Source of the DNA: Alkalibacterium putridalgicola
Lineage (GTDB): Bacteria > Bacillota > Bacilli > Lactobacillales > Carnobacteriaceae_A
Length of the DNA: 24,000 nt
Direction of reading: 5' to 3'
Assembly: GCF_900109825.1 (NCBI RefSeq)
Contig: NZ_FOBL01000009.1
Location: forward strand, 60,843 to 84,842
The notes under the pieces were generated by a model. That model had not been told where the DNA came from. It searched no databases and saw only the letters and a list, made by a program, of their open reading frames with translations. The stretch's first letter is position 1; each line of letters starts with the position of its first letter. Below, piece after piece: positions 10,549-24,000 of this stretch. The position numbers were made by a program, and so were the translations under genes.

Positions 10549-10593
10549 GATATTCTCCTTTTCTTGTTCGTTTTTTGACTCTATAAACATCTT

Positions 10594-10611: not shown

Positions 10612-10626
10612 TCACCACACGTAGAA

Positions 10627-10646
10627 TTTCCGTTGACTAACGGAAA
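10627..10646. promoter_or_regulatory. Perfect palindrome TTTCCGTT-GACT-AACGGAAA, a candidate activator (LicR-type) operator
   Basis: The arms are 8 bp with a 4-bp spacer. The centre is ~50 bp upstream of the inferred operon transcription start. Confidence 0.4.
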
Positions 10647-10780
10647 AAGAATAGAGGCAGTTAAAGCAGCTGCAAACTTTTTTTACATTTTAGAACGACA
10701 GAACACCCTGTTTGCTCCACCAGAGGCATTCATCGACAAATGAACACCACCGCATTATGTAGGGTTACATTTTAACGTAT

Positions 10781-10820
10781 AAAAAGCATCAGAGATTGTG
10801 CCGATCACAGCCTCTGATGC
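10781..10820 (-). terminator. Rho-independent terminator of the phosphatase-CHAD gene
   Basis: gcatcagag (10786-10794) pairs with ctctgatgc (10812-10820), followed by a T-run on the minus strand (A5 at 10781-10785). Confidence 0.7.
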
Positions 10821-10869
10821 TTTCTGCTTCATTTTCATTTATTTAAATAGATGTCTTCCGCTTCTCCTA

Positions 10870-12183
10870 TCATGACTCATTCAAATCGGGTTCGTCATCT
10901 ATCACGTTTTCGCGCTGACTCAGCTGCCGGTCTGCGAGCGTAGTGAACGCCTCTTCAAGCTTAGGATCATCCACTTTCTCGGCATAATCTTTGAGCCATT
11001 CGCTGTTGACATACAGATCACCGATCTCGCCCAGCTCGTCTTTGATGGTCTTCAGCTTTTTCTTCGCCTTTTTCGCTTTCTTTTTGGGCAGGAGATCTTT
11101 GTAGCCTTTCACAGCATATCGCAGTTTTTTCGCTTTCTTCCTGACATCATGAGCGGCTTCATGGTCCGAGTGGTCGGCTTTCTCAAAAGCTTTGTACACC
11201 TTTTTCTTTCTGGATTTGAAGCGGTCTTTCAAATAAGCCTCAATATCGCCGTCGTCTGTTTTGTCCAGATCGAAAGAGAGCTGCCTGATCCCCTCTTTTG
11301 TATCGGCAAGCATGTCTTCGAACGCGGCCGTCATGCCCTTGGTCAGACGCGAACGCATCCACTTGCGCCGTTCGTTATGCAAGTAACGGAACACTTCAAA
11401 ATAATCGTCGACCAGCTCCGGTTCCTTTAGGGCCCGCTCGCCGCAGGAGTCGATCAGGACATCCCCTTCGCGCAGCGGCTCCAACCGGTGATACGAATCT
11501 TTGATCTGGTCATTCATTTCCTTGTACGTCTCTTTACCGATCAGCGGTTTCACGAAATGCAGCAGGGAGCGCAGTTTTCGCATGTCTACCCGGAAGCGAT
11601 GGGTCCGCTCCGGTGAATAAGGGTTATTCTGGAAATGATGGTAGGACTCTTCCATCGCTTCTGCCCGCTCTAAAAGGATCTTTCTGATCGGTGCGACTGT
11701 TTCATCAAGTTTTTTTTTACTCTTCGGGTCACTTTCCCAAAGGAGTTTACCTTGAGTCCGGTCATCGTTCAAACGGATCAGAGCTGCTCCGCCTTTTTTG
11801 AATGAATACGGTCTGCTGGTCAAGAGGCCGACCCAGTCGCCCTGGATAGGCTTATGCCCGACACACACGACCCGGGTATCCTCATCCAGCGCCTTGACTT
11901 CATTTCTGAAAGCAGTGTAGTCACCGCTTTCTAAAAACTCTTTCTCATCCGCAGCTGGCCATCCCATCTGTTCTATCAAGATTGAGGCCGTCTGTTTGGC
12001 CCGTGTTAAGGGACTTGTCCATACTAAAACGTTCCGTTCGGTCTCTATATTTTTCTTGACGGACGAGATGAAAGCGTCAAACGCCTCCTTGCCTTCTTCA
12101 GTCAGCTGACGCTTGCTGTCGTCTACATCCGCTGAGCGGTCTTCGGCTATTCCATGACGGATCATAAGTAGCTCTATTGACAT
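10870..12183 (-). CDS. Histidine phosphatase (SixA/PGAM-like) fused to a CHAD domain
   Basis: 437 aa. The N-terminus LLMIRHGIAED...TSPLTRAKQTA...VGHKP carries the RHG/H motifs of the histidine phosphatase superfamily. The C-terminal half is helical and Lys/His-rich, with CHAD-type motifs HRFRVDMRKLRSLL and HDVRKKAKKLRYAVK. Confidence 0.8.
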   Translation of the reverse strand: MSIELLMIRHGIAEDRSADVDDSKRQLTEEGKEAFDAFISSVKKNIETERNVLVWTSPLTRAKQTASILIEQMGWPAADEKEFLESGDYTAFRNEVKALDEDTRVVCVGHKPIQGDWVGLLTSRPYSFKKGGAALIRLNDDRTQGKLLWESDPKSKKKLDETVAPIRKILLERAEAMEESYHHFQNNPYSPERTHRFRVDMRKLRSLLHFVKPLIGKETYKEMNDQIKDSYHRLEPLREGDVLIDSCGERALKEPELVDDYFEVFRYLHNERRKWMRSRLTKGMTAAFEDMLADTKEGIRQLSFDLDKTDDGDIEAYLKDRFKSRKKKVYKAFEKADHSDHEAAHDVRKKAKKLRYAVKGYKDLLPKKKAKKAKKKLKTIKDELGEIGDLYVNSEWLKDYAEKVDDPKLEEAFTTLADRQLSQRENVIDDEPDLNES

Positions 12184-12280
12184 ATCGATCTCTCCTTTAG
12201 TCGATGCCTGTTCAAGTTGATACTTCTCCCTTTAGTATACCAAAAGTGGCCAAAGAGTTGAGTAATAAGCATTTTCTATC

Positions 12281-12328
12281 AAAAAAGCGGCTCCGCCCAT
12301 CGATCAGAAGACCACATGAGCAGAGCCG
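12281..12328 (-). terminator. Rho-independent terminator of the DUF427 gene
   Basis: On the minus strand a 13-bp stem forms between cggcucugcucau and augggcggagccg (two G-U pairs, which exist only on the minus strand). The loop is 15 nt and U6 follows. Confidence 0.75.
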
Positions 12329-12342
12329 TTTCATTTATGCAT

Positions 12343-12621
12343 TTATTCTTTAACGAATTTCTTGTCGAAACAGATATGTCCCGTGATGTGTCTGGCCTTT
12401 TCTTTGGGATCTTCATACGACCAGGCGCCGTTATCTATCTGTTCATCATCCACGATAATATGGTAATACGTCGCTTCGCCCTTCCATGGACACGTGTACT
12501 CTTTGTCGCTTTCTGTGAGACATTCCATTTTCACATCTTCTCTTGGGAAGTAATGATTGTTCTCTACCACTTCTGTGTTGTCACTTTCTGCAAGGACGGT
12601 ATTTTTATAGACAGCTTTCAT
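12343..12621 (-). CDS. DUF427 domain protein
   Basis: Start moved to ATG at complement 12619-12621, preceded by AGGAGGAG. The sequence MKAVYKNTVLAESDNTEVVENNHYFPREDV...CPWKGEATYY...AWSYEDP follows the DUF427 pattern. Confidence 0.8.
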   Translation of the reverse strand: MKAVYKNTVLAESDNTEVVENNHYFPREDVKMECLTESDKEYTCPWKGEATYYHIIVDDEQIDNGAWSYEDPKEKARHITGHICFDKKFVKE

Positions 12622-12730
12622 CTTGACTCCTCCTCTTTTCATTTCTCCTACTCTAGTATACGCCAAGAGGCCGCTTCATGAAAAGTATGAGCGCTTGACG
12701 AAGGCCCACTGAACGTTGAGGTCCGAATGA

Positions 12731-12759
12731 TTGCAACTGGCGCTGTGACCAACTACAAT
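12731..12759 (+). promoter_or_regulatory. Sigma-A promoter of the hydrolase gene
   Basis: TTGCAA (12731-12736), 17 nt spacer, TACAAT (12754-12759). The predicted start of transcription near 12766 argues against the track's GTG start at 12764. Confidence 0.6.
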
Positions 12760-12799
12760 TAAAGTGACAGTAAAAATCCGCAAACGATGGAGGAAGCTC

Positions 12800-14434
12800 A
12801 TGAACCGTTTTTTAAAGTCATTAGTCGTAATGAACAGTGTATCCCTTGTTTTAAGTCTCTTTTATGTCTTATTCCCCGGAGAAAGTGCCTTCTGGAACGC
12901 CTATGGGCTACTGGTGATCCTGACCCTGACCGGGAATATAGCCGCCAGTATAATCAAGCCCGATCAGAAGAAATGGTCTGCCTTGTACCTGGTCTTGTCT
13001 AGTGCCGGCATGATCGGCATCATGGTTTTAACGACGCTTGCCTCTCTGGACCCCGCCGACACAGCATCCAGAAGTCTGGTGGCGATCGTCCTCTTCTTAT
13101 CGCTCTTTGTAGTCGGCACCCTGCTGGCCGGGATCTCGTTCCTACATACAAAGCGGCGAGAACACACACGCCGCACACTTTCACGACAGACAGAAATAAC
13201 ACCAATTAAAGTCGTGCGCATCACGCTGCGTGTTCTGTTGGGGTTCGTCTTACTGGTCGGCGTCTTTCTGGCCGTTACGATGGTCACGAGCGTCAGTGTC
13301 GGTGTGATCGAAGCCGCCGTCTCCCCGTACAGTCTGTTTTTCAGTTTAATCTTTTTAAGTACGGCCGGGCTTTTTCTCAAGGTCTCGCCTTTTGACTGGC
13401 GGTCGTTAAAAGGGATGAGCGTGTTGCTTATCGGTACCACCCTGTACGTGGTCTTTGCCCTCCCCTTCTTCTCTATCCCTGCCATGCTGGAGGAAGCGGA
13501 AGAAAATTATACAGCGGCGTTTGGAGACGACTGGCAGGACGATGACGAAACGGTCCCCGCCTTCAAAGAACTGCCTGTGTCGCTGCCCGCCTTCTTCTTC
13601 GGCACTCCTTCAGGCAACTATGAGCTGGAAGAAGATGTGCAGTATTATCAAGGTGACAGCGGCGTGGATGAAGGCCTAGACCTGTGCTTTGATGTCTACA
13701 CACCCACAGAAAACGCAGCCGATCTGCCGGGACAAGGCTCGGTGCTGATCCGGATCCATGGCGGCGGCTGGAACTCTGGCGATAAGGGACCTGAGAACTT
13801 TTCCCAGGTCAACAAATACTTTGCCGAACAAGGCTATGTGGTGTTCGACGTCCAGTATGGCTTGAATGCGGCGAGACAGTTCTCTGGCCTGCTGTCTGCT
13901 CCCGATGATGTCACCGGGGACTTTTCCGTCAAAGACATGGTACGCCATCTGGGTCTGTTCACGACGTATCTGGCCGATCATCATGAACGGTATGACGCAG
14001 ACATCGATTCTGTCTTCGTTTCAGGCGGATCGGCCGGCGGACACCTGGCGAACGCGCTGGCACTGGGAGCCTCCAGCGGCCAGTACACCGAACTAATCGA
14101 CACACGGATCACGGTAAAAGGCATCATTCCCTTCTACCCGGCCAACGATCTGGCAAGCTTCCCAGGTGTGGGTGATGCAGAGGAACTGATCGACCCGGCT
14201 CTCTTGGTTGAGGAAGACAGTCCACCGGCCTTGGTCTATCAGGGAGACCTTGATACCCTCGTTGAGCCACAGGTGACACGTGATTTCAAAGAGGCGTATG
14301 TAGAAGCGAATAACAGTGACATCGCGATCATCTGGCTGCCGTATGGGTCGCATGCCAGTGACCTCTATTTCACCGGCGTCTACAACCAGACCTTCCTGTA
14401 TTACATGGAACGGTTTATGTATCAACACCGATGA
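12800..14434 (+). CDS. Membrane-anchored alpha/beta hydrolase (esterase/lipase-like) with a multi-TM N-terminal domain
   Basis: ATG at 12800 is preceded by GGAGGAAG. The first ~240 aa form several hydrophobic helices. The C-terminal domain has the oxyanion motif HGGGW (IRIHGGGWNSGD), the nucleophile elbow GGSAGG, and candidate Asp (GDLDTLV) and His (YGSHAS). Confidence 0.85.
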   Translation: MNRFLKSLVVMNSVSLVLSLFYVLFPGESAFWNAYGLLVILTLTGNIAASIIKPDQKKWSALYLVLSSAGMIGIMVLTTLASLDPADTASRSLVAIVLFLSLFVVGTLLAGISFLHTKRREHTRRTLSRQTEITPIKVVRITLRVLLGFVLLVGVFLAVTMVTSVSVGVIEAAVSPYSLFFSLIFLSTAGLFLKVSPFDWRSLKGMSVLLIGTTLYVVFALPFFSIPAMLEEAEENYTAAFGDDWQDDDETVPAFKELPVSLPAFFFGTPSGNYELEEDVQYYQGDSGVDEGLDLCFDVYTPTENAADLPGQGSVLIRIHGGGWNSGDKGPENFSQVNKYFAEQGYVVFDVQYGLNAARQFSGLLSAPDDVTGDFSVKDMVRHLGLFTTYLADHHERYDADIDSVFVSGGSAGGHLANALALGASSGQYTELIDTRITVKGIIPFYPANDLASFPGVGDAEELIDPALLVEEDSPPALVYQGDLDTLVEPQVTRDFKEAYVEANNSDIAIIWLPYGSHASDLYFTGVYNQTFLYYMERFMYQHR

Positions 14435-14471
14435 GCTGGTCCCAAAAACTGACACGCTGGATCTTTTTAAA

Positions 14472-14524
14472 TAAAAAAGGCATGCCACACGAGACTTACT
14501 GCTCGTTTGTGGCATGCCTTTTCA
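14472..14524. terminator. Bidirectional rho-independent terminator between convergent genes
   Basis: aaggcatgccaca (14477-14489) pairs perfectly with tgtggcatgcctt (14508-14520). An A-run lies upstream and a T-run downstream. Confidence 0.85.
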
Positions 14525-14551
14525 TTCTTTAAAATCTCTAATGCACATTGT

Positions 14552-14980
14552 TCAATTAAATAACAGCAGAACGAACCCGGCCGCGAAAACGATCAACAGA
14601 ACGACCGAGATGATCGTGACCGTCGTCAGATTCAAGGTCGACGGGTAATTTCTTTCTGTCGTATCAGAGAAGTAACCTTTCAGATAATCATAAACGGCTT
14701 TATAGCCGATCCAGGCATAGATGAAAGAAAACATCCCTAGAAATATCAGGCACCCGCCTAGGATCAGTCCCACTGTGGCATTCTCGGTGTCCCGCAAAGC
14801 CGTGCCCAGCGTCCAGCCTGCCCCGGCGAGTGTAAAACCTATACGGATCCAGGCCGCATAGGTCCGTTCGGCGGCTAAAAGGGTGCGGCTCTCGGCCATC
14901 GCATTCCTCATTTCAGCCAGATCGGTACGAAGTTCAGCCAGTTCATTTTTGGATTGCTTTTTGTTTGCCGGTTCACTCAT
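14552..14980 (-). CDS. DUF202 (YidH-like) membrane protein
   Basis: 142 aa. The block RTLLAAERTYAAWIRIGFTLAGAG is the DUF202 signature, followed by three predicted TM helices. An AAGGAAGG RBS is present. Confidence 0.75.
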   Translation of the reverse strand: MSEPANKKQSKNELAELRTDLAEMRNAMAESRTLLAAERTYAAWIRIGFTLAGAGWTLGTALRDTENATVGLILGGCLIFLGMFSFIYAWIGYKAVYDYLKGYFSDTTERNYPSTLNLTTVTIISVVLLIVFAAGFVLLLFN

Positions 14981-14995
14981 AACGGTCCTTCCTTT

Positions 14996-15295
14996 CTAGG
15001 TATCTTTTACACAGCGGAAGCCCAGGTTGCTTGTTGACAGATTGGATTCCGAATCGCCCGTCACCACATAACTTTTCAGCCGCGACCGGCAGTTGTACCG
15101 GCCCGTCAGCAGGCCATACCGCGACGGCGTGCATAAAGACGACGTGGCATGCGAATCTCTGAACTGCATTCCCGCCTCTGCCAGACGGTCGATATTTTTG
15201 GTGTGTATTTTTGAACTCGGATTGAAACTGGATACGTCACCGTACCCCAGATCATCTGCGAAAATCAGTACGATATTTGGTTTCCTGCTGCTCAT
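14996..15295 (-). pseudogene. Sulfatase (arylsulfatase family) N-terminal remnant: 99 codons of an expected ~450-500
   Basis: MSSRKPNIVLIFADDLGYGDV...SLCTPSRYGLLTGRY carries the metal-binding DD and the formylglycine C-x-P-x-R motif. The ORF ends after ~99 aa, directly abutting the next gene. Confidence 0.8.
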
Positions 15296-15415
15296 AAACG
15301 TATTCCGTTAGTCACACTACTATGGTAGCAGATTAAAATATTTCTAGCATACTAAACGCACGGGATTACTTAGGGTCATCTTTCTCAGATAGATCAACAG
15401 CATCTTTTTTGATTA

Positions 15416-15474
15416 AGGACAAAGAAAACACGTGTACCAAGAGAGGATATGTCCGCTCTTTGATACACGTGTTT
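15416..15474 (-). terminator. Long hairpin / probable terminator downstream of the SOUL-family gene
   Basis: aaacacgtgta (15426-15436) pairs with tacacgtgttt (15464-15474), with additional inner pairs. The minus strand continues uucuuugu. Each arm contains the palindromic octamer ACACGTGT. Confidence 0.6.
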
Positions 15475-15513
15475 AGTAAAAGCTAGGATGTTGTATTTTC
15501 TTAGCGACTATGC

Positions 15514-16023
15514 TCACTTGTACTGGACCCGGACCCAAACCTCATTTCGTCTAAATGGCGGGAGCGTGAACGGACCACTGTAAGAGGCCACCATAAAGGC
15601 CGACTGCTTTTCGAGTCCTTTGTCGGTGATCCATTTGTCCAGCTTTTCTTTCATGCTGATTTCTTTGGTGCGGCTTCTTTTGCCTGAAAATTGGATGACC
15701 GCAAACACGCCTTCATCGAATTGCTCTACTTTTAGATTCGAATCAGTCGGCTCGGGCACCTGTCCCCAGTACTTCTCCGGTACAACGAACGCCATTTTCC
15801 TGTTCTCGTCGGTCTCTTCCTGAATCACCGGTACGGTCATTGAAATCTTTTCATTGTCCTTGTTTTCACTGGAGATGTACTTGAACAAGGTCCGAAAGCC
15901 TCGGTCGACATCGGGGTCTGCTCGGTTATCGTATTCCACAATATAGAATTGGCCATACTTTCGCAGTTCAAAGCTGTCCTCTTTCTCCAGTACCTCATAA
16001 TCAGGCGTCTCATACTTTCCCAT
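15514..16023 (-). CDS. SOUL heme-binding-protein family protein
   Basis: 169 aa. The sequence YETPDYEVLEK...FELRKY...GFRTLFKYISSENKDNEKISMTVPV follows the SOUL/HBP domain pattern. Confidence 0.8.
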   Translation of the reverse strand: MGKYETPDYEVLEKEDSFELRKYGQFYIVEYDNRADPDVDRGFRTLFKYISSENKDNEKISMTVPVIQEETDENRKMAFVVPEKYWGQVPEPTDSNLKVEQFDEGVFAVIQFSGKRSRTKEISMKEKLDKWITDKGLEKQSAFMVASYSGPFTLPPFRRNEVWVRVQYK

Positions 16024-16520
16024 CGTCTCACTCCGTTCCCTAAACGTTGATAATCTTACTGACAGTATATCACTTTAGACACAAAACCCCTTCATGATCG
16101 ATTTAGGACTGAAGGATTTATGATTTGGACTCAGTCTTTGTTTACAAAAGGACGGAACAGACTTGAGTAGCGTGAATATGCCTACTCAAAGGGAGAAGTA
16201 TTTTTTAAAATGCACTTATTTTATATCGGTCGAAGAGGAAAATATATAATCACTTGTAAATATATTTCTGAACAATGCTTTAAAATATTTTTATTTTTTC
16301 AAACGCATCAAGGTATTTATGTAAATAGAAAGGCGGATCATACTTCATAAAAATGAAGTAAATCTACATCGTATAATATTTACTTACAAAAGGATTGACT
16401 AATCAAGCAGCAATTCATTTTCAAAGTAGAACTCTTTTTTTGGTGAAGTACTTAATATCTATTGATTAATTCATTCGAGAAAATTAATACGCTGGATAAT
16501 CAACATTTATTTTAAGTTAA

Positions 16521-16638
16521 TTAACCAAAAAAGTTTAGAGTACTCAATATAAGATAAGTTAAAACTAGCAATCCAACTATCCCAAGAAAAATACCAAAAG
16601 CAATCCAAAATTGTTTTTTAACTTTTTTTCTTCATCAT
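16521..16638 (-). other. Possible frameshifted small membrane-peptide ORF (38 aa if one A is removed from an A7 run)
   Basis: The minus strand reads ATGATGAAGAAAAAAAGTTAA, which stops after 6 codons. Removing one A from the A7 tract gives MMKKKVKKQFWIAFGIFLGIVGLLVLTYLILSTLNFFG followed by a stop at complement 16521-16523. The RBS is weak. Confidence 0.25.
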
Positions 16639-16726
16639 TTTTTACCATTCAATCACTCTTTCATTATTTATTGTAATTTTATTGAAAAATGTAACATTGT
16701 TTAATATATATATTACATATACTCAC

Positions 16727-16972
16727 TTAATTCAATAACGTATAAACCGTAAACAAAAGCAGGGATAAAGCAGTAATTAAAGTTATACTTCCTTTAGCTT
16801 TTCGTCCTTCTTTGAAGTCCTGTGGCGTTATTGCTAAAAGTGACAAGATTAGAAATAAAGTTATGAGCGGGAACAAGGTATAATTTCCGGAAATTAATAT
16901 GTATACAGAAACGAGTATACTGATAATAAGTGATATTCTTTGCAGTATTCTATACACTATAAACACATCCAT
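16727..16972 (-). CDS. Possible small 3-TM membrane protein
   Basis: 81-aa ORF, strongly hydrophobic, in an AT-rich region. No clear RBS was found and no family was recognised. Confidence 0.35.
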   Translation of the reverse strand: MDVFIVYRILQRISLIISILVSVYILISGNYTLFPLITLFLILSLLAITPQDFKEGRKAKGSITLITALSLLLFTVYTLLN

Positions 16973-17198
16973 TCATTTTAACTTAGTATACCATAATCTG
17001 TATATATCTTTCTGTTTAATTTATAAGTGTAAAGAAGATCATTATTGAGTTTTGAGTAAACACATTATTAGAAAATTTCTCCATGTGCCACAACTATCCT
17101 CTTATTGTGTCTTTAACTCTTTGCGCTTTAAGTCGGTGAGGATCATATTCAAATAATGGAAGGATTTCCCGTTCTGCGAGGTTTTAATTTTTGAAAGC

Positions 17199-17231
17199 AA
17201 AAAACCTCGACTGCATATTTGTCAGTCGAGG
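17199..17231 (-). terminator. Rho-independent terminator of the SEC-C motif gene
   Basis: cctcgactg (17205-17213) pairs with cagtcgagg (17223-17231): 9 bp and perfect. U6 follows on the minus strand (A-run 17199-17204). Confidence 0.8.
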
Positions 17232-17254
17232 CATTACTATTTGTTTAGCTACTA

Positions 17255-17986
17255 TTATCGGGCTTTCTTTTGCTGGTCTTTATTTATACAGCATTTTTTA
17301 TATTTTTTGCCGCTGCCGCAATGACAAGGATCGTTGCGTCCGAGTTTCTTCGTTTGAGACGTTCCGCTAACTTTGGATGAGTGTGACGAAAGATTATACC
17401 CTTGTTCTTTCAGCTCTTTATTCGTGTGGCCATTGTTGTCCCAAAGTCTCACGTTATTTTGAAGCGCCTTGATCATACGACTGACTGTTTCCTTTTGTTT
17501 TCTACCTTTAAACGTGACACCCCTATCAGTGAACACGTTCATCAGTGCTTTGAAACGAGTATTCACTTCGATCATTCCTTGGACATCTTCACAGACAGCT
17601 GTTGCGCGGAAGCTATCGCCGTCTACTAGATTTTCTAAGACATAATCATATAAAGTGGTATACGCCGCGTTCTGTTCAAAATAAAAATCATCGACATACT
17701 TGAGCAGCTCGTTTTTCTCTGGGATATATCTTGGCTTCCCTGCCTGCTTCTCCAGCATCGCAGCCAACCCATCAAACGTGAGAATAGTATCGTGGGCAAA
17801 ATGCTCATCCTCTAAATAAACAAAAGCCTTTTCGATTGCTTGTCTGTTTTCCAGAAAGTTCGTTTCCACATCTTCCAGTGTCACCTGTTCTTCATTCTGA
17901 TCATTATAAATATCAGCAACGACCTCTTTAGGTACCACGCCGTAAAGGTGAGCTGATGCGACTATATATTGAGATAGCAGATTCAT
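17255..17986 (-). CDS. SEC-C metal-binding motif protein of unknown function
   Basis: Start moved to ATG at complement 17984-17986, preceded by GGAGGA. The C-terminus RNDPCHCGSGKKYKKCC is the SecA-C-terminal-type zinc motif. The N-terminal ~200 aa were not recognised. Confidence 0.8.
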   Translation of the reverse strand: MNLLSQYIVASAHLYGVVPKEVVADIYNDQNEEQVTLEDVETNFLENRQAIEKAFVYLEDEHFAHDTILTFDGLAAMLEKQAGKPRYIPEKNELLKYVDDFYFEQNAAYTTLYDYVLENLVDGDSFRATAVCEDVQGMIEVNTRFKALMNVFTDRGVTFKGRKQKETVSRMIKALQNNVRLWDNNGHTNKELKEQGYNLSSHSSKVSGTSQTKKLGRNDPCHCGSGKKYKKCCINKDQQKKAR

Positions 17987-18115
17987 CTTTAGTCCTCCAT
18001 AAAACATTTAACACCATTGTATCATGATTCAAATTGGATGAGTAATATACTTAGTATGAAAGCAGAGCAAAATATATTTGTTACCATAATTCTTGAAGTA
18101 ACATCCACCTAGTTC

Positions 18116-18167
18116 TTTTTTACATTCTTGCTATGATTGAAAATGATATAAGCGAGAATGTAAAAAA
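18116..18167. repeat. 17-bp inverted repeat with an 18-nt loop in the SEC-C/cas9 divergent intergenic region
   Basis: ttttttacattcttgct (18116-18132) pairs with agcgagaatgtaaaaaa (18151-18167), with one G-U position. The T-run is 5' and the A-run 3' on both strands, so it is not a canonical terminator. Confidence 0.6.
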
Positions 18168-18303
18168 ACTCATTTATTGTTACAGATTCTATATTTTTGT
18201 ACGTTCTTCACCTGGTTAATTATTCTTTATAAATCAATAGGATATTCACTTAGTGCAAAAATGAGTAGAATTTAAAAATCCAGAGAAATTGAATCCCTTT
18301 TCA

Positions 18304-18312
18304 TGTTACAAT
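18304..18312 (+). promoter_or_regulatory. Candidate extended -10 promoter for cas9
   Basis: TGtTACAAT lies at 18304-18312, ~38 nt upstream of the cas9 ATG. Several other AT-rich -10-like hexamers are nearby, so the assignment is tentative. Confidence 0.3.
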
Positions 18313-18349
18313 GGTATAAATATATACAATGAGATTGGGAGGAAATATA

Positions 18350-21300
18350 ATGGCAAATAGAGTTTTAGGATTGGATATTGGTGTGTCGAGCGTCGGCTGG
18401 GGAATTATCGATAAAGATACGAATGAGGTTATCGATGCAGGCGTTCGGTTGTTCGAAGAAGCGACACGCAATGCGAATGAAGAAAGACGTAGTTTTAGAG
18501 GAGCTCGTCGCTTAAAAAGACGTCGTAAACATCGCCTTGAACGTGCAGAAGACTTTTTGCAATCAAACGGTTTTCCTGTAGACAGTATCGGTTCTATTGA
18601 CCCCTATCGTGCTCGCTATGTTGGTTTAAAAGAGGAACTGTCAAAAAAAGAGCTGGCTGCTGCTCTTTATCATTTGATCAAACGACGTGGGACAACCATT
18701 GATACACCCGCAGAAGATGATAAAACTTCCGGCAATGAATTATCTACTAAAGAACAACTGAAACGTAATGCGAAAAAGTTGGAAGATAAACATGTCGTAG
18801 AAATTCAGTATGAAAAATTGGTGAACAATGAGGTCGTTCGTGACCATACGAATCGTTTCAAGACAAGTGACTATATCAATGAAGCAAAAGCCTTGCTTGA
18901 AACTCAAAGTAAATACCATGCTGAAATTGATGCATCTTTTATCGAAGGGATTATCGAACTCATTAACAACCGCAGACAATATTATGATGGTCCAGGATCT
19001 GAAAAATCTCCTACCCCTTATGGTCAGTGGTACTATGATGAAGAAGGCATCTTACAGTATGAAACGATGATCAATAAAATGCGCGGAAAAGGTACTTATT
19101 TTACAGATGAATTGCGGATACCTAAAAAAGCCTATACGGCAGAACTCTTTAATGTCTTAAACGACTTAAATAACCTCCACTTTCCTCGGGATGAGACCCT
19201 AGATAGTTTAACCACTGAAGAAAAAGAAACGCTTATAAAAACCCATATAGATAAAGGAAGTAAAATAACACTGAAAAAAATCGCTAAACTTGTGGGTATC
19301 TCTGATGAACTGGATATCAAAGGCGCCCGATTGAACTTAAAGACAAATAAACCGATATTTTCAGAGTTTACTGGCCTGAAAAAACTAAAAAAAGATTTGG
19401 AAGGTATCGATGTTCCAGAGGGATTCTTTGAAAATAGAGAAGTTTTGGATAAAATCGCTGAAATACTGACGGCTGAAAAAAGCATCGCTCGCCGTGAAGA
19501 ACAGCTGGGTCAGTTATTCGAACAAGCATATAGTAGTCCCTTGAGCGATGTAGTTGCAGGCCTAGTCAATGACACATCGTTCAAGGAATACCACGCACTG
19601 TCTAAAAAAGCTATGGATCTTATCTTGCCTGAACTGTGGGAGACCAATAAAAATCAGATGCAGCTCTTTACAGAACATGGACTTGGGAAAAGTCGACTGG
19701 AACAGCTACAGAAAGAATCAAAAATCCAGTTTGATGATGAAGCTATCTTAAGTACAGTCGCTCGTCGCGCCCACCGGGAAGCCATCAAAGTAACAAACGC
19801 AGTCAGAGAAAAACATGGGGAACTTTCTCATGTCGTTGTCGAAATGGCACGCGAAAAGAACAGTGACGAAGCAAAGAAATCCTATAACGATTATCAGAAA
19901 AAAATTGGTGCGTTTGAAAAGAAAATGGCCAAACTGCTTGACGTCAAAGAATTAAAAGACTTGAAACTGAACGGAAAACAGATGCTGGCTTTGAAACTGA
20001 TGGATAGCCAGGATTATAAATGTATCTATACAGGTAAGCAAATTTTACCTCATGATATTGTAAACCAAGAGTATCAGTTTGAAATCGATCACATCATCCC
20101 TCTTTCCTACTCTTTTGATGACAGCCAGCAAAATAAAGTCTTATGCTATCGTCAAGAGAACCAGGATAAAGGTCAACTGACCCCTTTCCAGTATTTTCAA
20201 AGCGGCAAGGCGAAGCGGACATTTAATGAGTTTAAAGCCGAATGTACCAATTTGTTCAACTCTAAAAAGATATCAAAACGCAAGTTAAATTATCTGCTCG
20301 AACAGCGTGACGTGCAGCACGATCCAGAAATCCAAAAGAACTTCATCAACCGCAACCTTGTTGATACGCGTTATGCCATGCGTAGTTTGTCATCAAACTT
20401 AAGAACATTCTACATGAATAACGACATTGACACGAAAGTCTTATCTATCAGAGGAAGTTTTACCTCTGCACTCAGACGTCGTGCTCGCCTCCATAAAGAT
20501 AGAGATGAAAGCCATGCCCATCATGCTATCGATGCACTGATCGTATCAGCTATCGGTACTACACCGATACTGAAACAGTTTAAAGCAGTCGACTTTAACC
20601 GTGAAGGTATTGCGGTCAATACAGAAACAGGTGAGATCATCAGTGAAGAAGAAATCTTTGCCTCCCCTACCTTGAAGTTCATTCATTGGTTGAGGAATAT
20701 GGAAAGCGAGATCAAGTATTCTCATAAAGTCGACCGAAAACCCAACCGAACCATGACAAACCAAACTCTCTATTCTACTCGAGAAAAAGATGGTGACAAG
20801 TATGTTGTTGGAAAAGTAAAAAATATCTATGAACTGGATAAAAAAGGATTCGACTCACTTAAGAAAAAAATTGACAAAGATCCAGATAGTTTCCTGATGG
20901 CCCAGCATGATCCCAAGACATGGGAACTCGTTTTAAAAGTCATGGATGAACATAGTCACGCGGACAATCCTTTCCAAGATTTTAAAAAGCAGCATGGTCA
21001 TATAAAAAAAGACGGAAAGGTTCCAGTTAAAGGACTAAAATATCTCGATAATAAAATAGGCATCCATGTCGATATCTCTCATAAATTTCCAGAATCCAAA
21101 CGTGATGTTGTTCTCCTTAGTCGTAAAAGCATCCGTATCGATGTGTATCAGAACGATGAAGGGAAATATAAGTATTTGGGCGTCCCTTATAACTGGTTTA
21201 CAAAAGAAGGCGATCATTACGTTCTAGATAAAGAAAAATATTATGGTAAAGAAGGATTGGCAGCCCCTTACAAACAAATAGATGATTCCTATACATTCCA

Positions 21301-21592
21301 GTATAGTTTTTATAAAAATGATCGGATTTCGTATGACAAGTATGAGAAAATGGAAAATCCAGAAACCGGAGAAAAAGAAAAAGTAATGGTACATCATGAT
21401 AAGATCTTTAGAGGAGACACAAATCCAAGACAAAACCAAATTGAGATTGATGACATAGCCTTCAAGTTTAATGGAAGACAATTCATCACCCTTGGTAAAC
21501 TAATAAATTTAGAAAAGTATAACATCGATATACTAGGAAATGAATATCTTATTGAAAAAGAAGAACTTCAGGATAAAATTCCGGCAATTTAA
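18350..21592 (+). CDS. cas9: Cas9 endonuclease, compact type II-A (SaCas9/St1Cas9-like), 1080 aa
   Basis: ATG at 18350 is preceded by GGGAGGAAATATA; the track's 18329 start lacks an RBS.
- RuvC-I: MANRVLGLDIGVSSVGWGII, with the Asp codon at 18374-18376.
- Arg-rich bridge helix: RRSFRGARRLKRRRKHRLER.
- RuvC-II: VVVEMAREKN.
- HNH: YQFEIDHIIPLSYSFDDSQQNKVLCYRQENQDKGQLTPFQY, with the His codon at 20090-20092.
- RuvC-III: HHAIDALIV.
Long stretches are colinear with SaCas9 as I recall it (GNELSTKEQ, NRFKTSDY, FINRNLVDTRYA, YSHKVDRKPNR, DILGN). Confidence 0.97.
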   Translation: MANRVLGLDIGVSSVGWGIIDKDTNEVIDAGVRLFEEATRNANEERRSFRGARRLKRRRKHRLERAEDFLQSNGFPVDSIGSIDPYRARYVGLKEELSKKELAAALYHLIKRRGTTIDTPAEDDKTSGNELSTKEQLKRNAKKLEDKHVVEIQYEKLVNNEVVRDHTNRFKTSDYINEAKALLETQSKYHAEIDASFIEGIIELINNRRQYYDGPGSEKSPTPYGQWYYDEEGILQYETMINKMRGKGTYFTDELRIPKKAYTAELFNVLNDLNNLHFPRDETLDSLTTEEKETLIKTHIDKGSKITLKKIAKLVGISDELDIKGARLNLKTNKPIFSEFTGLKKLKKDLEGIDVPEGFFENREVLDKIAEILTAEKSIARREEQLGQLFEQAYSSPLSDVVAGLVNDTSFKEYHALSKKAMDLILPELWETNKNQMQLFTEHGLGKSRLEQLQKESKIQFDDEAILSTVARRAHREAIKVTNAVREKHGELSHVVVEMAREKNSDEAKKSYNDYQKKIGAFEKKMAKLLDVKELKDLKLNGKQMLALKLMDSQDYKCIYTGKQILPHDIVNQEYQFEIDHIIPLSYSFDDSQQNKVLCYRQENQDKGQLTPFQYFQSGKAKRTFNEFKAECTNLFNSKKISKRKLNYLLEQRDVQHDPEIQKNFINRNLVDTRYAMRSLSSNLRTFYMNNDIDTKVLSIRGSFTSALRRRARLHKDRDESHAHHAIDALIVSAIGTTPILKQFKAVDFNREGIAVNTETGEIISEEEIFASPTLKFIHWLRNMESEIKYSHKVDRKPNRTMTNQTLYSTREKDGDKYVVGKVKNIYELDKKGFDSLKKKIDKDPDSFLMAQHDPKTWELVLKVMDEHSHADNPFQDFKKQHGHIKKDGKVPVKGLKYLDNKIGIHVDISHKFPESKRDVVLLSRKSIRIDVYQNDEGKYKYLGVPYNWFTKEGDHYVLDKEKYYGKEGLAAPYKQIDDSYTFQYSFYKNDRISYDKYEKMENPETGEKEKVMVHHDKIFRGDTNPRQNQIEIDDIAFKFNGRQFITLGKLINLEKYNIDILGNEYLIEKEELQDKIPAI

Positions 21593-21601
21593 AATAAAGG
21601 G

Positions 21602-21630
21602 TTTACATGTATATCTTGGCTTGGTATAAT
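21602..21630 (+). promoter_or_regulatory. Sigma-A promoter of the tracrRNA
   Basis: TTTACA (21602-21607), 17 nt spacer, TATAAT (21625-21630), with a TGg extended -10 (21622-21624). It begins 10 nt after the cas9 stop. Confidence 0.8.
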
Positions 21631-21636
21631 ATAGTT

Positions 21637-21738
21637 GTCCTCGACGGAGGACTCCGTTATACCAAAGGTTGAGAGAACCTACCAAAAAAAGGCTTTATGC
21701 CGAGATCACAGATCAGCCCCTTCATTGGGGCTTTTTTG
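21637..21738 (+). ncRNA. tracrRNA: tracrRNA (~100 nt primary transcript)
   Basis: Anti-repeat 21653-21687 pairs with the CRISPR repeat at 23928-23963 as 16 bp, a U-U mismatch, 7 bp, a 3-nt/1-nt bulge, then 8 bp. This gives 31 bp in total. A nexus-like hairpin GGC-UUUAU-GCC follows (21691-21701), then GAUC-ACA-GAUC. The terminator is AGCCCC-UUCAUU-GGGGCU plus U6 (21715-21737). The 5' end is predicted from the promoter only. Confidence 0.88.
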
Positions 21739-21769
21739 GTATCCAAATCCATGAAATGAGGTGTTCCAA

Positions 21770-22672
21770 ATGAGCTGGCGCGTCGTGTATATCGAAAAGT
21801 CTGATCGGCTGAAATTGTATCTGGATAATTTAAAAGTTGTCAGAGAAGAATCCGAAGTCCTCATCCCCTTATCCGATATACATACCATCATCGTTGATAA
21901 TCAGCAAACCGTTGTCACTGCAAGACTTATTAATAAACTTTCCAAATATCATATCCTGCTCGTTTTTTGTGATGAAAAACATCTTCCAAACACCTACGTC
22001 TTGTCTCCCCACAGCCATCATCAGTCATCCAAGATGCTGAAAAAGCAAATAGGTTGGTCCCCTGCTGTCAAAGAAATCATGTGGAAACAAATCATACAAA
22101 TAAAGATTTATAATCAGGCCTCCGTACTTCACCATTTAAAGCGGAGTGAACCTGTGATTCATCAGCTGTATGATCTTGCGGAAACGGTTCAGCAAGCTGA
22201 CCAGTCTAACCGTGAAGGTCATGCGGCTAAACTGTACTTTAAGGAACTCTTTGGTTCCTCCTTCATACGTGAACGCAGCAGTCTAGACGGCATCAACTCG
22301 GGACTGAATTACGGCTATATCGTCATGCGCTCAACTGTTGCGCGTAGTTTGATAGCTTCAGGGCTTCATCCTGGCCTTGGCATCGGTCACGACAATCAGT
22401 ATAATGCCTTTAATTTAGCTGATGATTTGATCGAACCGTTCAGACCAATTGTTGACCTATGGGTAGCTGTTTTGATGAGTGAAAAGGATTATCTTGACAT
22501 AAAAACCAAACAAAAACTCGTGTATTTGATCAGCAACAATAAAATTATGATTGGCAATCAGAAGCAAACGATTTTAAACGCAATATCTCTTCTCATTCAA
22601 AGCTTTATAAAAAGCATGGATGAAGAAAATCCCGATTTACTGGTGTATCCAGCTAATGGGATCGCCATATAG
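21770..22672 (+). CDS. cas1: Cas1 integrase (type II)
   Basis: ATG at 21770 is preceded by GAGGTG. The sequence MSWRVVYIEKSDRLKLYLDNL..., SNREGHAAKLYF, LNYGYIVMRS, FNLADDLIEPFRP follows the type II-A Cas1 pattern. Length is 300 aa. Confidence 0.95.
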   Translation: MSWRVVYIEKSDRLKLYLDNLKVVREESEVLIPLSDIHTIIVDNQQTVVTARLINKLSKYHILLVFCDEKHLPNTYVLSPHSHHQSSKMLKKQIGWSPAVKEIMWKQIIQIKIYNQASVLHHLKRSEPVIHQLYDLAETVQQADQSNREGHAAKLYFKELFGSSFIRERSSLDGINSGLNYGYIVMRSTVARSLIASGLHPGLGIGHDNQYNAFNLADDLIEPFRPIVDLWVAVLMSEKDYLDIKTKQKLVYLISNNKIMIGNQKQTILNAISLLIQSFIKSMDEENPDLLVYPANGIAI

Positions 22673-22985
22673 ATTTATGCGTCTCATGCTATTTTTTGAT
22701 TTGCCAATGAATACACGAAGCGAAAGACGAACGTATGCGAGATTTAGAAAGTATTTGATAAAAAATGGCTTTACCATGGTTCAATTTTCAGTTTATTCAA
22801 AGATCTTTCCTAACCGCAGTTCTTTAGATACGTATATGATGACATTAAGACAGAATCTGCCAAAACATGGTTCGATACGGGCAATGGCTGTTACTGAGAA
22901 GCAGTATAATAAAATGTACCTACTCGTAGGCGACCAGACATTGACTGAACAGACGCTGACAGATAATACGATGGTGATCTTATGA
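22656..22985 (+). CDS. cas2: Cas2
   Basis: MGSPYRFMRLMLFFDLPMNTRSERRTYARFRKYLIKNGFTMVQFSVYSK aligns with type II-A Cas2 N-termini (SpCas2 begins MSYRYMRMILMFDMP, as I recall). The start is uncertain: 22656 (overlaps cas1 by 17 nt) or ATG 22677. The track's 22620 is unlikely. Confidence 0.9.
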   Translation: MGSPYRFMRLMLFFDLPMNTRSERRTYARFRKYLIKNGFTMVQFSVYSKIFPNRSSLDTYMMTLRQNLPKHGSIRAMAVTEKQYNKMYLLVGDQTLTEQTLTDNTMVIL

Positions 22986-23917
22986 AAGAGTGGCGAATTA
23001 ACGATCCAAAAGGTACCACATTATTAATGAGTCAGATAACTCTTCTAAAAGGTGCTATTTTTGAATGGCAGGAAGTTATAGAACGGATTAGACTAACGTT
23101 TGAATTAAAAAAATATGATCTTTTTGAAAGTGAAGAAAAAATATATGTCGATGATTATTATTTAAGTATCTTGTCAAATTCTGATGACTATTATTCTTCA
23201 AATTTAAAGGACTCTAAAGACTCCTTAATGGCCTTGTTTATAGCTTACTTAGAACTGTCCCCTTTCTACAAAAATCTTGTTGAAAGCTGGGAAGAATTAC
23301 AGGAAGAAGTCGAACTTTTGAGCCAAGAACTCGGTTATTCTGCCGAAGTTCGATTAGATGATTATAAAAAGAATATTATCGAGGATCATTTAAAATGGAA
23401 AAGTAGCAAGGGAAATGCTTTGGAGGAAATGCTGCAGCAGATTAAGTTGACGAAAAAGTCTAAACCGGATAAAAGACATATTTTTATCCTAATATCTCCT
23501 GAAAAAATCTTAAACGATAAAGAGTTGGTAAAACTGAATGATCAACTACAGCAATCACCAGGTTATTTTATTGTTGTAAGTGGTTTTTCGTTTTCAGGCT
23601 CTCAGAATATTTTATACAATGATCAGATAATTAATCAGGAATCTGTAACAAGCTATAAAGACACAATAAGCACCCTATTACCTTTTGTATTCAGTGAAAA
23701 CAAATTTGAGAACTCTCTAAAGTGGTATATTAACTCTGTGGATAAAAGTAATGGAAACATCATAAAATTATCTCTATCGTCTGTGGATAACTTGGAAGAG
23801 TTAATTTATGTTTTTATAATGATATACGTAACTCAACTCCCGTTTACTGTTGACTACACGGGCATTCCTGAAGGTTACAAAAAGTACATTGAATCAGTAA
23901 TTGAATCTGAGGTATAA
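22982..23917 (+). CDS. csn2: Csn2-like protein, long form (311 aa), assigned mainly by position
   Basis: It is the fourth gene of a cas9-cas1-cas2 operon and is directly followed by the array. Its start overlaps the cas2 stop (ATGA). The central block KRHIFILISPEKILNDKELVKLNDQLQQSPGYFIVVS resembles the Csn2 core (SpCsn2 [37 protein letters not shown], from memory). Overall similarity is weak. Confidence 0.7.
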   Translation: MKEWRINDPKGTTLLMSQITLLKGAIFEWQEVIERIRLTFELKKYDLFESEEKIYVDDYYLSILSNSDDYYSSNLKDSKDSLMALFIAYLELSPFYKNLVESWEELQEEVELLSQELGYSAEVRLDDYKKNIIEDHLKWKSSKGNALEEMLQQIKLTKKSKPDKRHIFILISPEKILNDKELVKLNDQLQQSPGYFIVVSGFSFSGSQNILYNDQIINQESVTSYKDTISTLLPFVFSENKFENSLKWYINSVDKSNGNIIKLSLSSVDNLEELIYVFIMIYVTQLPFTVDYTGIPEGYKKYIESVIESEV

Positions 23918-23918
23918 T
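23889..23918 (+). promoter_or_regulatory. Candidate pre-crRNA promoter embedded in the 3' end of csn2
   Basis: TTGAAT (23889-23894), 18 nt spacer, TATAAT (23913-23918). The -10 overlaps the csn2 TAA stop (23915-23917). The predicted start of transcription is ~3 nt before the first repeat. Confidence 0.5.
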
Positions 23919-23927
23919 GAAATTGGC

Positions 23928-24000
23928 ATTTTGGTACTCTCTCATCCTTTGGTATAACGGAACTGTATCCGATAATGGTAGTACGCTTAATTATTTTGGT
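23928..24000 (+). CRISPR. Start of a type II-A CRISPR array (repeat 1, spacer 1, first 8 nt of repeat 2), truncated by the window end
   Basis: Repeat 1 is ATTTTGGTACTCTCTCATCCTTTGGTATAACGGAAC (23928-23963, 36 nt). The spacer is tgtatccgataatggtagtacgcttaatt (23964-23992, 29 nt). ATTTTGGT recurs at 23993-24000, giving a period of 65. The repeat is complementary to the tracrRNA anti-repeat and shares the GTACTCT core with Sa/St1-type repeats. The repeat/spacer boundary is uncertain by 1 nt. Confidence 0.85.

What the first reader, a model, noticed from the sequence alone, without database searches (positions are those of the whole stretch)
18350..24000. Complete compact type II-A CRISPR-Cas9 system (1080-aa Cas9, tracrRNA, cas1, cas2, long csn2, array), a candidate uncharacterised small Cas9 ortholog
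All parts needed for a working system can be read directly.
- Nuclease motifs: cas9 is intact, with RuvC-I Asp (D9, 18374-18376), HNH His (H581, 20090-20092), HNH Asn (N604, which aligns to SaCas9 N580) and RuvC-III HHAID.
- Guide RNAs: a promoter-driven tracrRNA is present, together with a repeat that pairs with it.
- Adaptation genes: cas1, cas2 and a csn2-like gene follow.

At 1080 aa the protein is in the SaCas9 (1053 aa) and St1Cas9 (1121 aa) size class, which is prized for AAV delivery. The protein is clearly divergent from SaCas9, with many substitutions and indels in the REC and PI regions when aligned from memory.
Basis: partly seen in the sequence, partly recalled or inferred. Interest (0 to 1): 0.85.

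Follow-up and report, generated by a model that had tools for sequence, protein, structure and literature searches.

The report
Ordinary compact type II-A CRISPR-Cas9 locus
This is an intact but conventional CRISPR-Cas9 immune locus of the marine lactic acid bacterium Alkalibacterium putridalgicola; its small Cas9 is already annotated in public databases but has not been tested biochemically, so it is one more candidate genome-editing enzyme and not a new kind of system.

Summary
Window 18350-24000 carries cas9 (1080 aa, all catalytic residues intact), a promoter-driven tracrRNA, cas1, cas2, a 311-aa csn2 and the first CRISPR repeat.

- **Source:** the window is 100% identical to A. putridalgicola contig BJUX01000011.1. 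There the array continues for at least 36 identical repeats with 35 unique spacers, up to the contig end.
- **Cas9 status:** the protein is already in RefSeq as Cas9 (WP_177165463.1). I found no paper that characterises it.
- **Closest tested relatives:** these are not SaCas9 (40% identity). They are Listeria ivanovii LivCas9 (58%, PAM NNACAC) and Bacillus niameyensis BniCas9 (57%, PAM NNGTAMY).
- **PAM:** unknown. No spacer matched any phage, plasmid or metagenome sequence searched. The C-terminal PAM-reading patch is the most divergent part of a mosaic gene, so the PAM cannot be transferred from relatives.
- **csn2:** standard annotation misses it (no Pfam or NCBIfam hit), but PADLOC profiles and a predicted fold confirm it.

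Verdict: a correct reading of an ordinary system, a new member of a known kind, of modest interest.

Side observations: a hairpin with an invariant GACG loop sits at the tracrRNA 5' end across this Cas9 clade, and the array promoter lies inside the csn2 3' end.

The parts
18304..18312 (+). Probable cas9 promoter, an extended -10 element (TGtTACAAT). No good -35 element.
   Evidence: Read from the sequence. The motif caTGnTA(C/T)AAT is conserved upstream of cas9 in four related loci (L002-L005), although the DNA further upstream differs. Inferred, not tested.
18350..21592 (+). cas9, 1080 aa. Catalytic residues: RuvC-I D9, RuvC-II E498, HNH H581/N604, RuvC-III H725/D728. WED and PI domains at the C-terminus.
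   Evidence: TIGR01865 629 bits against a cut-off of 100. Pfam HNH_4, RuvC_III, Cas9_RuvC and WED. Full-length match to SaCas9 structures, E 1e-196. Residues checked. 100% identical to WP_177165463.1.
21602..21630 (+). tracrRNA promoter: TTTACA, 17-nt spacer, TGgTATAAT.
   Evidence: Best promoter-like site of the region, 11/12 with TG. Conserved in position in 20 related loci.
21637..21738 (+). tracrRNA primary transcript (predicted). Parts: 5' hairpin 21637-21652 (GTCCTC-GACG-GAGGAC), anti-repeat 21653-21687, nexus stem-loop GGCUUUAUGCC 21691-21701, terminator hairpin 21715-21732 plus T run to 21737.
   Evidence: Duplex with the repeat at -47 kcal/mol, with the same one-sided bulge as in SaCas9 guides. 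Fold z-score -3.8. The nexus pair GGC/GCC changes to GGG/CCC in 7 of 20 relatives. Terminator. No Rfam hit. RNA ends are inferred.
21770..22672 (+). cas1, 300 aa. The ORF tool starts it at GTG 21761. ATG 21770 has a GAGGTG ribosome-binding site and is the public start.
   Evidence: TIGR03639 type II Cas1, 303 bits. PADLOC Cas1_II 4e-102. Gene call.
22620..22985 (+). cas2, 121 aa. It overlaps the cas1 3' end, and the true start may be an internal Met.
   Evidence: TIGR01573 72.8 bits. PADLOC Cas2_II 4e-42.
22982..23917 (+). csn2, 311 aa, of a divergent family. This is the signature gene of subtype II-A.
   Evidence: No Pfam, NCBIfam or PDB sequence hit. PADLOC Csn2 PDLC02128 1e-119 over the full length. 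AlphaFold model pLDDT 83.8, and the top 19 Foldseek PDB hits are all Csn2.
23889..23918 (+). Probable pre-crRNA promoter, TTGAAT-18 nt-TATAAT, lying inside the csn2 3' end. The csn2 stop codon TAA (23915-23917) sits within the -10 box.
   Evidence: 10/12 matches. A -10 box about 10 nt before repeat 1 is present in 18 of 20 related loci, including every Carnobacteriaceae locus with a readable array. Inferred.
23928..24000 (+). Start of the CRISPR array: repeat 1 at 23928-23963 (ATTTTGGTACTCTCTCATCCTTTGGTATAACGGAAC), spacer 1 at 23964-23992, first 8 nt of repeat 2.
   Evidence: The same contig continues with 36 identical repeats and 35 unique spacers of 29-32 nt, up to the contig end.

Best explanation
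This is a complete, probably active type II-A CRISPR-Cas adaptive immune locus of Alkalibacterium putridalgicola (Carnobacteriaceae).

**Proposed mechanism (inferred from the established S. pyogenes, S. thermophilus and S. aureus type II-A pathway):**
1. The array is transcribed from a promoter embedded in the last codons of csn2.
2. The tracrRNA is transcribed from its own strong promoter between cas9 and cas1.
3. Its anti-repeat pairs with each repeat, and host RNase III with Cas9 processes the duplex.
4. Cas9 loaded with crRNA:tracrRNA finds protospacers that carry a 3' PAM.
5. The HNH domain (H581/N604) cuts the target strand and RuvC (D9/E498/H725/D728) cuts the other strand.
6. Cas1-Cas2-Csn2, with Cas9 selecting the PAM, insert new spacers at the csn2-proximal repeat.

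**Shown here:** the identity and intactness of every component, the RNA complementarity, and conservation of the whole layout across relatives.

**Inferred:** expression, processing, cleavage and the PAM, which is unknown.
For: - **Cas9:** TIGR01865 629 bits. Full-length similarity to SaCas9 and St1Cas9 structures. All catalytic residues present and no stop codons.
- **Adaptation genes:** Cas1 and Cas2 match type II-specific models. Csn2 is supported by PADLOC profiles and by fold.
- **tracrRNA:** near-consensus promoter and terminator. Duplex with the repeat at -47 kcal/mol. Same position and architecture in 20 related loci, with a compensatory change in the nexus.
- **Array:** 36 identical repeats and 35 unique spacers.
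- **Tested relatives:** two clade members at 57-58% identity work experimentally with the same guide design.
- **Recent exchange:** the tracrRNA and adaptation module is 91-100% identical at the DNA level to A. gilvum. This suggests it was exchanged recently and is under selection.
Against: - There are no expression or cleavage data.
- No protospacer was found for any of the 35 spacers in the phage and plasmid BLAST collections. Exact-match scans with five of the 35 spacers in IMG/VR, and with one of them in JGI metagenomes, also found nothing. Neither targets nor PAM are therefore known.
- The array end and its terminal repeat are not assembled, because the contig stops inside the array.
- The Pfam PI-domain match is just below its cut-off (26.9 against 27 bits).
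- RNase III is not in the window.
Confidence: 0.9

Rival explanations
1. The locus is a decaying or silenced remnant: the genes look intact, but the system no longer interferes or adapts.
For: No spacer matches any known phage or plasmid. Nothing here measures expression.
Against: All four genes are intact and the catalytic residues are present. All 36 repeats are identical and all 35 spacers are unique. The tracrRNA and array promoters are near consensus and conserved. The lack of spacer matches is expected for a host whose phages have hardly been sampled.
Confidence: 0.07
2. The Cas9 has already been characterised, being near-identical to a published enzyme, so it is not a new ortholog.
For: It is an exact RefSeq entry annotated as Cas9. 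Patents and subscription journals could not be searched.
Against: No paper links Alkalibacterium with Cas9 work. It is absent from the supplements of the 79-ortholog catalogue and of a 2025 ortholog screen. The closest tested enzymes are 57-58% identical and SaCas9 is 40%.
Confidence: 0.03
3. The 311-aa gene is not csn2 but an unrelated hitch-hiker, which would make the locus II-C-like with an extra gene.
For: No Pfam or NCBIfam hit, no PDB sequence hit, and NCBI names its four annotated relatives 'hypothetical protein'.
Against: Four PADLOC Csn2 profiles match over the full length, the best at 1e-119. The predicted fold returns only Csn2 structures as its top 19 hits. A homolog sits directly downstream of cas2 in 9 related loci (L002-L009 and L014); in the six of these with a readable array start it ends 10-31 nt before repeat 1.
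Confidence: 0.02

Closest known systems
LivCRISPR-1 of Listeria ivanovii WSLC 30167 (LivCas9, 1078 aa; Hupfeld et al. 2018, PMC6061871)
   Same: Same Cas9 clade: 58% identity over the full length to a 1078-aa L. ivanovii Cas9. Its gene set (cas9, tracrRNA, cas1, cas2, csn2, array) is as reported in the paper; the cas9-tracrRNA-cas1-cas2-csn2 layout itself was verified here only on L. costaricensis locus L009, whose array was not found. That locus has the same tracrRNA layout, including a 5' GACG-loop hairpin. Its csn2 likewise needed HHpred to be recognised. It is functional in phage defence and in phage genome editing.
   Different: 42% of residues differ, and the PAM-reading C-terminal segment differs (TN..QNQ..FKFNGRQFITLGKL here, against SS..GNQ..MRTSSQQMPTINPL in the L. 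seeligeri protein P0034, which shares a 90%-identity cluster with the L. ivanovii protein). The NNACAC PAM therefore cannot be assumed. I compared a database L. ivanovii protein of the stated length, not the strain's own deposited sequence.
BniCas9 of Bacillus niameyensis (Gasiunas et al. 2020, PMC7606464, clade V; PAM NNGTAM(A>C)Y)
   Same: 57% identity.
   Different: The PI region is only 46% identical. This protein carries a 14-residue insertion there. The nexus is GGC/GCC here instead of GGG/CCC.
SaCas9 of Staphylococcus aureus (PDB 5AXW, 5CZZ)
   Same: Same size class and domain order. It gives the best match among solved structures (E 1e-196). The catalytic residues align. The repeat (GTTTTAGTACTCTG...) and the tracrRNA bulge are similar (SaCas9 guide recalled from memory).
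   Different: The SaCas9 PAM contacts N985, R991 and R1015 align with T, Q and T here. An NNGRRT PAM is therefore not expected (an inference from an uncertain alignment).
Streptococcus thermophilus CRISPR1 system (St1Cas9)
   Same: The next-best match among solved structures from a different organism (E 5e-158). St1-type Streptococcus loci have the same cas9-(about 200 nt)-cas1 layout and the same GACG-loop hairpin before the anti-repeat.
   Different: About 36% identity. Their csn2 is not detectably similar at the sequence level.

Membership tests
Type II-A CRISPR-Cas system | cas9 effector gene present and intact | tested here: met
   TIGR01865 629 bits against a cut-off of 100. Single ORF with no stops.
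Type II-A CRISPR-Cas system | cas1 and cas2 adaptation genes of the type II kind | tested here: met
   TIGR03639 303 bits and TIGR01573 72.8 bits. PADLOC Cas1_II and Cas2_II.
Type II-A CRISPR-Cas system | csn2, the gene that separates II-A from II-B and II-C | tested here: met
   PADLOC Csn2 1e-119 over the full length. The AF2 model gives only Csn2 structures as its top 19 PDB hits. The Pfam and NCBIfam Csn2 models do not match.
Type II-A CRISPR-Cas system | tracrRNA with an anti-repeat complementary to the CRISPR repeat | tested here: met
   Duplex at -47 kcal/mol. Own promoter and terminator. Conserved in 20 loci. Expression not tested.
Type II-A CRISPR-Cas system | adjacent CRISPR array of 36-nt repeats and about 30-nt spacers, downstream of csn2 | tested here: met
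   One repeat is in the window. The identical source contig has 36 repeats and 35 spacers.
Cas9 nuclease | RuvC-I/II/III acidic residues and the HNH His/Asn | tested here: met
   D9, E498, H581, N604, H725 and D728. They align with SaCas9 D10, E477, H557, N580, H701 and D704.
Cas9 nuclease | RNA-guided, PAM-dependent double-strand DNA cleavage | not testable with these tools
   Needs a biochemical or in vivo assay. No protospacers were found from which to infer a PAM.
Compact SaCas9/St1Cas9-class Cas9 (Gasiunas clade V) | about 1050-1120 aa with a WED domain and a SaCas9-type PI domain | tested here: met
   1080 aa. Pfam WED 126 bits. PI2 26.9 bits, just under the 27-bit cut-off. Aligns end to end with SaCas9. 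The clade member Bni is listed as clade V.
Csn2 protein family | Tetrameric ring that binds DNA ends and joins Cas1-Cas2 | not testable with these tools
   Only a monomer was predicted. Oligomeric state and DNA binding were not examined.

The most novel reading that the evidence does not exclude
The most novel reading has two parts.

1. The Cas9 reads a PAM not yet seen in the compact class, because its PAM-contact patch (about residues 1001-1050) is a divergent cassette inside DNA that is otherwise 91-100% identical to A. gilvum.
2. The 5'-terminal hairpin with an invariant GACG loop is an undescribed functional module of tracrRNA biogenesis. I found it on the tracrRNA genes of this locus, of Listeria and Bacillaceae relatives and of St1-type streptococci. 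It could act in stability, annealing or RNase III positioning.
Probability: 0.3. Interest if true: 0.5.

Novelty: new member of a known kind. Interest (0 to 1): 0.25.

Why it matters
Compact Cas9 enzymes with new PAMs widen the set of sites that AAV-sized editors can target. This one has everything needed for a direct test: protein, repeat, tracrRNA and a plausible sgRNA. The same is true of hundreds of database relatives, and two members of the same clade have already been tested, so the gain is incremental.

The side observations may have more general value:
- a conserved GACG-loop hairpin at the 5' end of tracrRNA genes;
- an array promoter inside csn2;
- natural swapping of the PAM-reading patch between species.

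Tried and rejected
- **PAM inference failed.**
  - All 35 spacers were BLASTed (word size 11) against 50,697 phage and 72,556 plasmid records: no match.
  - Five spacers were scanned exactly in IMG/VR and one in JGI metagenomes: no match.
  - No spacer matches the window or any fetched locus.
  - The 104 spacers of Alkalibacterium sp. 20 and A. iburiense gave a single weak hit, 27 of 29 bases at E 0.3. It was an A. iburiense spacer in the terminase genes of three Streptococcus prophages, with the 3' flank GAAGCG or GAAGCT. That is too weak, and it concerns a different ortholog.
- **Rfam** has no model that detects this tracrRNA.
- **A palindrome at 18116-18167** gave only spurious miRNA-family matches and is not conserved in relatives.
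- **Repeat-borne promoters.** I considered whether each repeat carries its own promoter, as in type II-C systems, because the repeat contains TTTGGTATAAC. I rejected this as unsupported: the last -10 base is C, and relatives have TATAGG or TATAGA at that place.
- **A long-form tracrRNA acting as a natural single guide.** I considered this and rejected it, because the 5' hairpin is self-contained and does not fold onto the anti-repeat.
- **Literature not reachable.** The Chylinski 2014 paper on Csn2 families could not be retrieved. No supplements are held for the CRISPR-PAMdb paper.
Full report
**What is in the sequence**

The region 18350-24000 contains four co-directional genes and two RNA elements. 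The cas9 frame runs 18350-21592 (1080 aa, no internal stop). The mechanical ORF list extends it to an ATG at 18329, but the GGGAGG ribosome-binding site at 18337-18342 fits ATG 18350, and the public protein also starts there.

- D9, GAT 18374-18376
- H581, CAC 20090-20092
- N604, AAC 20159-20161
- HHAID motif, H724/H725/D728
- E498, the RuvC-II glutamate

In a BLASTP alignment with SaCas9, these align with D10, E477, H557, N580, H701 and D704. It agrees with the PDB alignment printed.

**Protein identities**

- **Cas9:** scores 629 bits on TIGR01865 against a cut-off of 100. It has Pfam HNH_4, RuvC_III, Cas9_RuvC and WED domains, and a PI-domain match just under threshold. It aligns end to end with SaCas9 structures (E 1e-196) and then with St1Cas9.
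- **Cas1 and Cas2:** Cas1 (21770-22672) and Cas2 (22620-22985) match type II models.
- **Csn2:** the 311-aa product of 22982-23917 has no Pfam, NCBIfam or PDB sequence match. Of its 14 database relatives, the four that carry an NCBI name are all called 'hypothetical protein'. Even so, four PADLOC Csn2 profiles match it over its full length, the best at 1e-119. An AlphaFold model built on 13 sequences (pLDDT 83.8, pTM 0.75) returns only Csn2 structures as its top 19 Foldseek hits (E 3e-7 to 5e-5), followed by ABC-type ATPases. The subtype II-A signature gene is therefore present.

**Guide RNAs**

Between cas9 and cas1 lies the best promoter-like site of the region: TTTACA 21602-21607, a 17-nt spacer, then TGgTATAAT ending at 21630. 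The only convincing terminator-like site is 21715-21732 plus a T run.

The transcript predicted between them (about 21637-21738) contains these parts:
- a 5' hairpin;
- an anti-repeat that pairs with repeat positions 2-34 at -47 kcal/mol, with a C against ACC internal loop like that of SaCas9 guides;
- the nexus GGCUUUAUGCC;
- the terminator hairpin.

In 20 related loci the same element sits in the same place. The middle nexus pair switches from C-G here to G-C in 13 of 20, which is a compensatory change. Rfam has no model that detects it.

**The array**

The window holds only repeat 1 (23928-23963), a 29-nt spacer and 8 nt of repeat 2. Window 8350-24000 is identical, with 0 mismatches, to the first 15.65 kb of locus L001. 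That locus is A. putridalgicola contig BJUX01000011.1 (GCA_007988845.1). There the array continues to 36 identical repeats and 35 unique spacers of 29-32 nt, up to the contig end.

**Whose gene it is, and whether it is characterised**

The Cas9 is an exact match to GEK89135.1, SEL75833.1 and WP_177165463.1. These entries are annotated as Cas9 or Csn1 of Alkalibacterium putridalgicola, family Carnobacteriaceae.

| Relative | Identity to this Cas9 |
|---|---|
| A. subtropicum | 87% |
| Other Alkalibacterium | 81-82% |
| Lacticigenium | 78% |
| Listeria | 57-58% |
| Many Bacillaceae | 51-57% |

I found no paper that combines Alkalibacterium with Cas9 work. There was also no entry in the supplements of the Gasiunas catalogue or of a 2025 ortholog screen.

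The nearest tested enzymes are these:
- **LivCas9** of Listeria ivanovii: functional in phage defence and editing, PAM NNACAC. A 1078-aa L. ivanovii protein is 58% identical to this Cas9.
- **BniCas9:** PAM NNGTAM(A>C)Y, 57% identical.
- **SaCas9:** 40% identical.

**PAM**

I could not infer the PAM.
- None of the 35 spacers matched phage or plasmid records.
- Five of them scanned exactly in IMG/VR, and one in JGI metagenomes, found nothing.
- None matched the window itself.

The protein is also a mosaic:
- Residues 1-870 resemble A. subtropicum (mostly 87-100%; two windows near residues 181-240 and 721-780 are 80%).
- Residues 780-1020 resemble A. gilvum (93-98%).
- The last 80 or so residues are 38-72% identical to the seven closest relatives compared.

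At the DNA level against A. gilvum:

| Window coordinates | DNA identity to A. gilvum |
|---|---|
| 18350-20750 | 62-81% |
| 20750-21350 | 91-97% |
| 21350-21500 | 71% |
| 21500-23900 (tracrRNA, cas1, cas2, csn2) | 91-100% |

The divergent island corresponds to the PI segment that aligns with the SaCas9 PAM contacts. Here N985, R991 and R1015 align with T, Q and T. That alignment is uncertain. A PAM different from NNGRRT, NNACAC and NNGTAMY is plausible but unproven.

**Mechanism**

The best explanation is the standard type II-A pathway, set out in the Best explanation section. The components and their complementarity are shown here. Transcription, RNase III processing, cleavage and adaptation are inferred from the S. 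pyogenes, S. thermophilus and S. aureus systems (established knowledge) and from the tested clade members.

The evidence for current or recent activity is indirect:
- the genes are intact;
- the repeats are identical and the spacers unique;
- the promoters are strong and conserved;
- the adaptation and tracrRNA module is almost identical to that of another species. Flanking proteins are much more diverged (SOUL 73%, SEC-C 57%), which points to recent horizontal exchange.

The locus is also lower in G+C (0.32-0.40) than the genes upstream (0.43-0.54).

**Side observations**

1. **tracrRNA 5' hairpin.** The tracrRNA gene begins, 6 nt after the -10 box, with the hairpin GTCCTC-GACG-GAGGAC.
   - All 17 distinct relatives tested fold a hairpin at this place, with z-scores of -2.1 to -6.9.
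   - Of 73 distinct cas9-cas1 spacers among the fetched loci, 33 have a stem of at least 5 bp closed on GACG. They include St1-type Streptococcus, Listeria and Bacillaceae. The background rate is 36 of 3000 random windows.
   - Across nine different stems the loop is invariant and all six pairs show double compensatory changes. These sequences were selected for having the hairpin, so the percentage paired is biased.
   - Two targeted full-text searches of the held library, which lacks most subscription journals, found no description of it.
   - An RNase III cut inside the repeat:anti-repeat duplex would remove the hairpin. Any role should therefore come before or during processing.
2. **Array promoter inside csn2.** Only 10 nt separate the csn2 stop codon from repeat 1. 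The probable array promoter lies inside csn2, with the stop codon inside the -10 box. The arrangement is found in all six Alkalibacterium and Carnobacterium loci with a readable array start.

**Verdict**

The finding is a correct reading of an ordinary system that is already annotated in public databases. The Cas9 is an untested member of a clade in which two enzymes have been tested. I rate it a new member of a known kind, with interest of about 0.25.

Noticed in passing
window 21637-21652; also L002-L030 and L057-L081 cas9-cas1 spacers: A hairpin with an invariant GACG loop and freely covarying stem sits at the predicted 5' end of the tracrRNA, directly before the anti-repeat. It occurs in 33 of 73 distinct related loci, including St1-type Streptococcus, Listeria and Bacillaceae. 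The background rate is 1.2% of random windows. Its function is unknown and I found no description of it in the papers searched.
   Followed up: partly
window 23889-23927: The array has almost no free-standing leader, with only 10 nt between the csn2 stop codon and repeat 1. The probable pre-crRNA promoter (TTGAAT-18 nt-TATAAT) lies inside csn2, and the stop codon falls within the -10 box. This is found in all six Alkalibacterium and Carnobacterium loci with a readable array start. Bacillaceae relatives have 16-36 nt there. The leader ends ...TTGGC|A here, against ...TTGAG|G in Bacillaceae.
   Followed up: partly
window 20750-23900, especially 21350-21500: The locus is a mosaic. The cas9 3' part, tracrRNA, cas1, cas2 and csn2 are 91-100% identical in DNA to A. 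gilvum, while the first 2.4 kb of cas9 is 62-81% identical. A 150-nt island coding for the PAM-reading part of the PI domain drops to 71%. This suggests recombination that swaps PAM specificity.
   Followed up: partly
window 22982-23917: This csn2 family is invisible to Pfam and NCBIfam. Of its 14 database relatives, the four with an NCBI name are all called 'hypothetical protein'. Only PADLOC profiles and the predicted fold identify it. It also evolves much faster than cas1: 39% against 79% identity to A. iburiense.
   Followed up: yes
window 18116-18167: A near-perfect inverted repeat with 17-nt arms and an 18-nt loop (TTTTTTACATTCTTGCT / AGCGAGAATGTAAAAAA) lies in the divergent intergenic region between the SEC-C gene and cas9. 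It is absent upstream of cas9 in relatives. It could be a bidirectional terminator or an operator.
   Followed up: partly
window 21621-21665 and 23948-23958: The tracrRNA -10 region TTGGTATAA is the reverse complement of the anti-repeat TTATACCAA 25-30 nt downstream. The CRISPR repeat itself contains TTTGGTATAAC, which resembles an extended -10 element. This may be a trace of how the tracrRNA gene arose from a repeat. It is probably not a repeat-borne promoter, because relatives have TATAGG or TATAGA there.
   Followed up: no
window 17255-18007 (minus strand); L002 14992-15705; L003 16302-17021: A 250-aa protein with a C-terminal SEC-C zinc motif flanks the CRISPR locus in three Alkalibacterium genomes. 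Here it is upstream of cas9. In the other two it is just downstream of the array, at 57% identity. It is unclear whether this is linkage or coincidence.
   Followed up: no
window 16000-17250: A very AT-rich stretch (G+C 0.29) with only small membrane-like ORFs lies between the housekeeping genes (G+C 0.43-0.54) and the CRISPR locus (0.32-0.40). This fits the locus being a horizontally acquired island.
   Followed up: no
window 4296-4978 (minus strand): A Phd/YefM-type antitoxin gene (4610-4978) abuts a 104-aa ORF with no family match (4296-4610). This is probably a type II toxin-antitoxin pair, sitting among sugar-utilisation genes.
   Followed up: no
L004 spacer 22; L082-L084: One A. iburiense spacer (ATCAAAGGAATTTCAGATGTGGTTATGGAG) matches the terminase large-subunit genes of three Streptococcus prophages at 27 of 29 bases. 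The 3' flank is GAAGCG or GAAGCT. This is a weak lead to the PAM of that ortholog only.
   Followed up: partly
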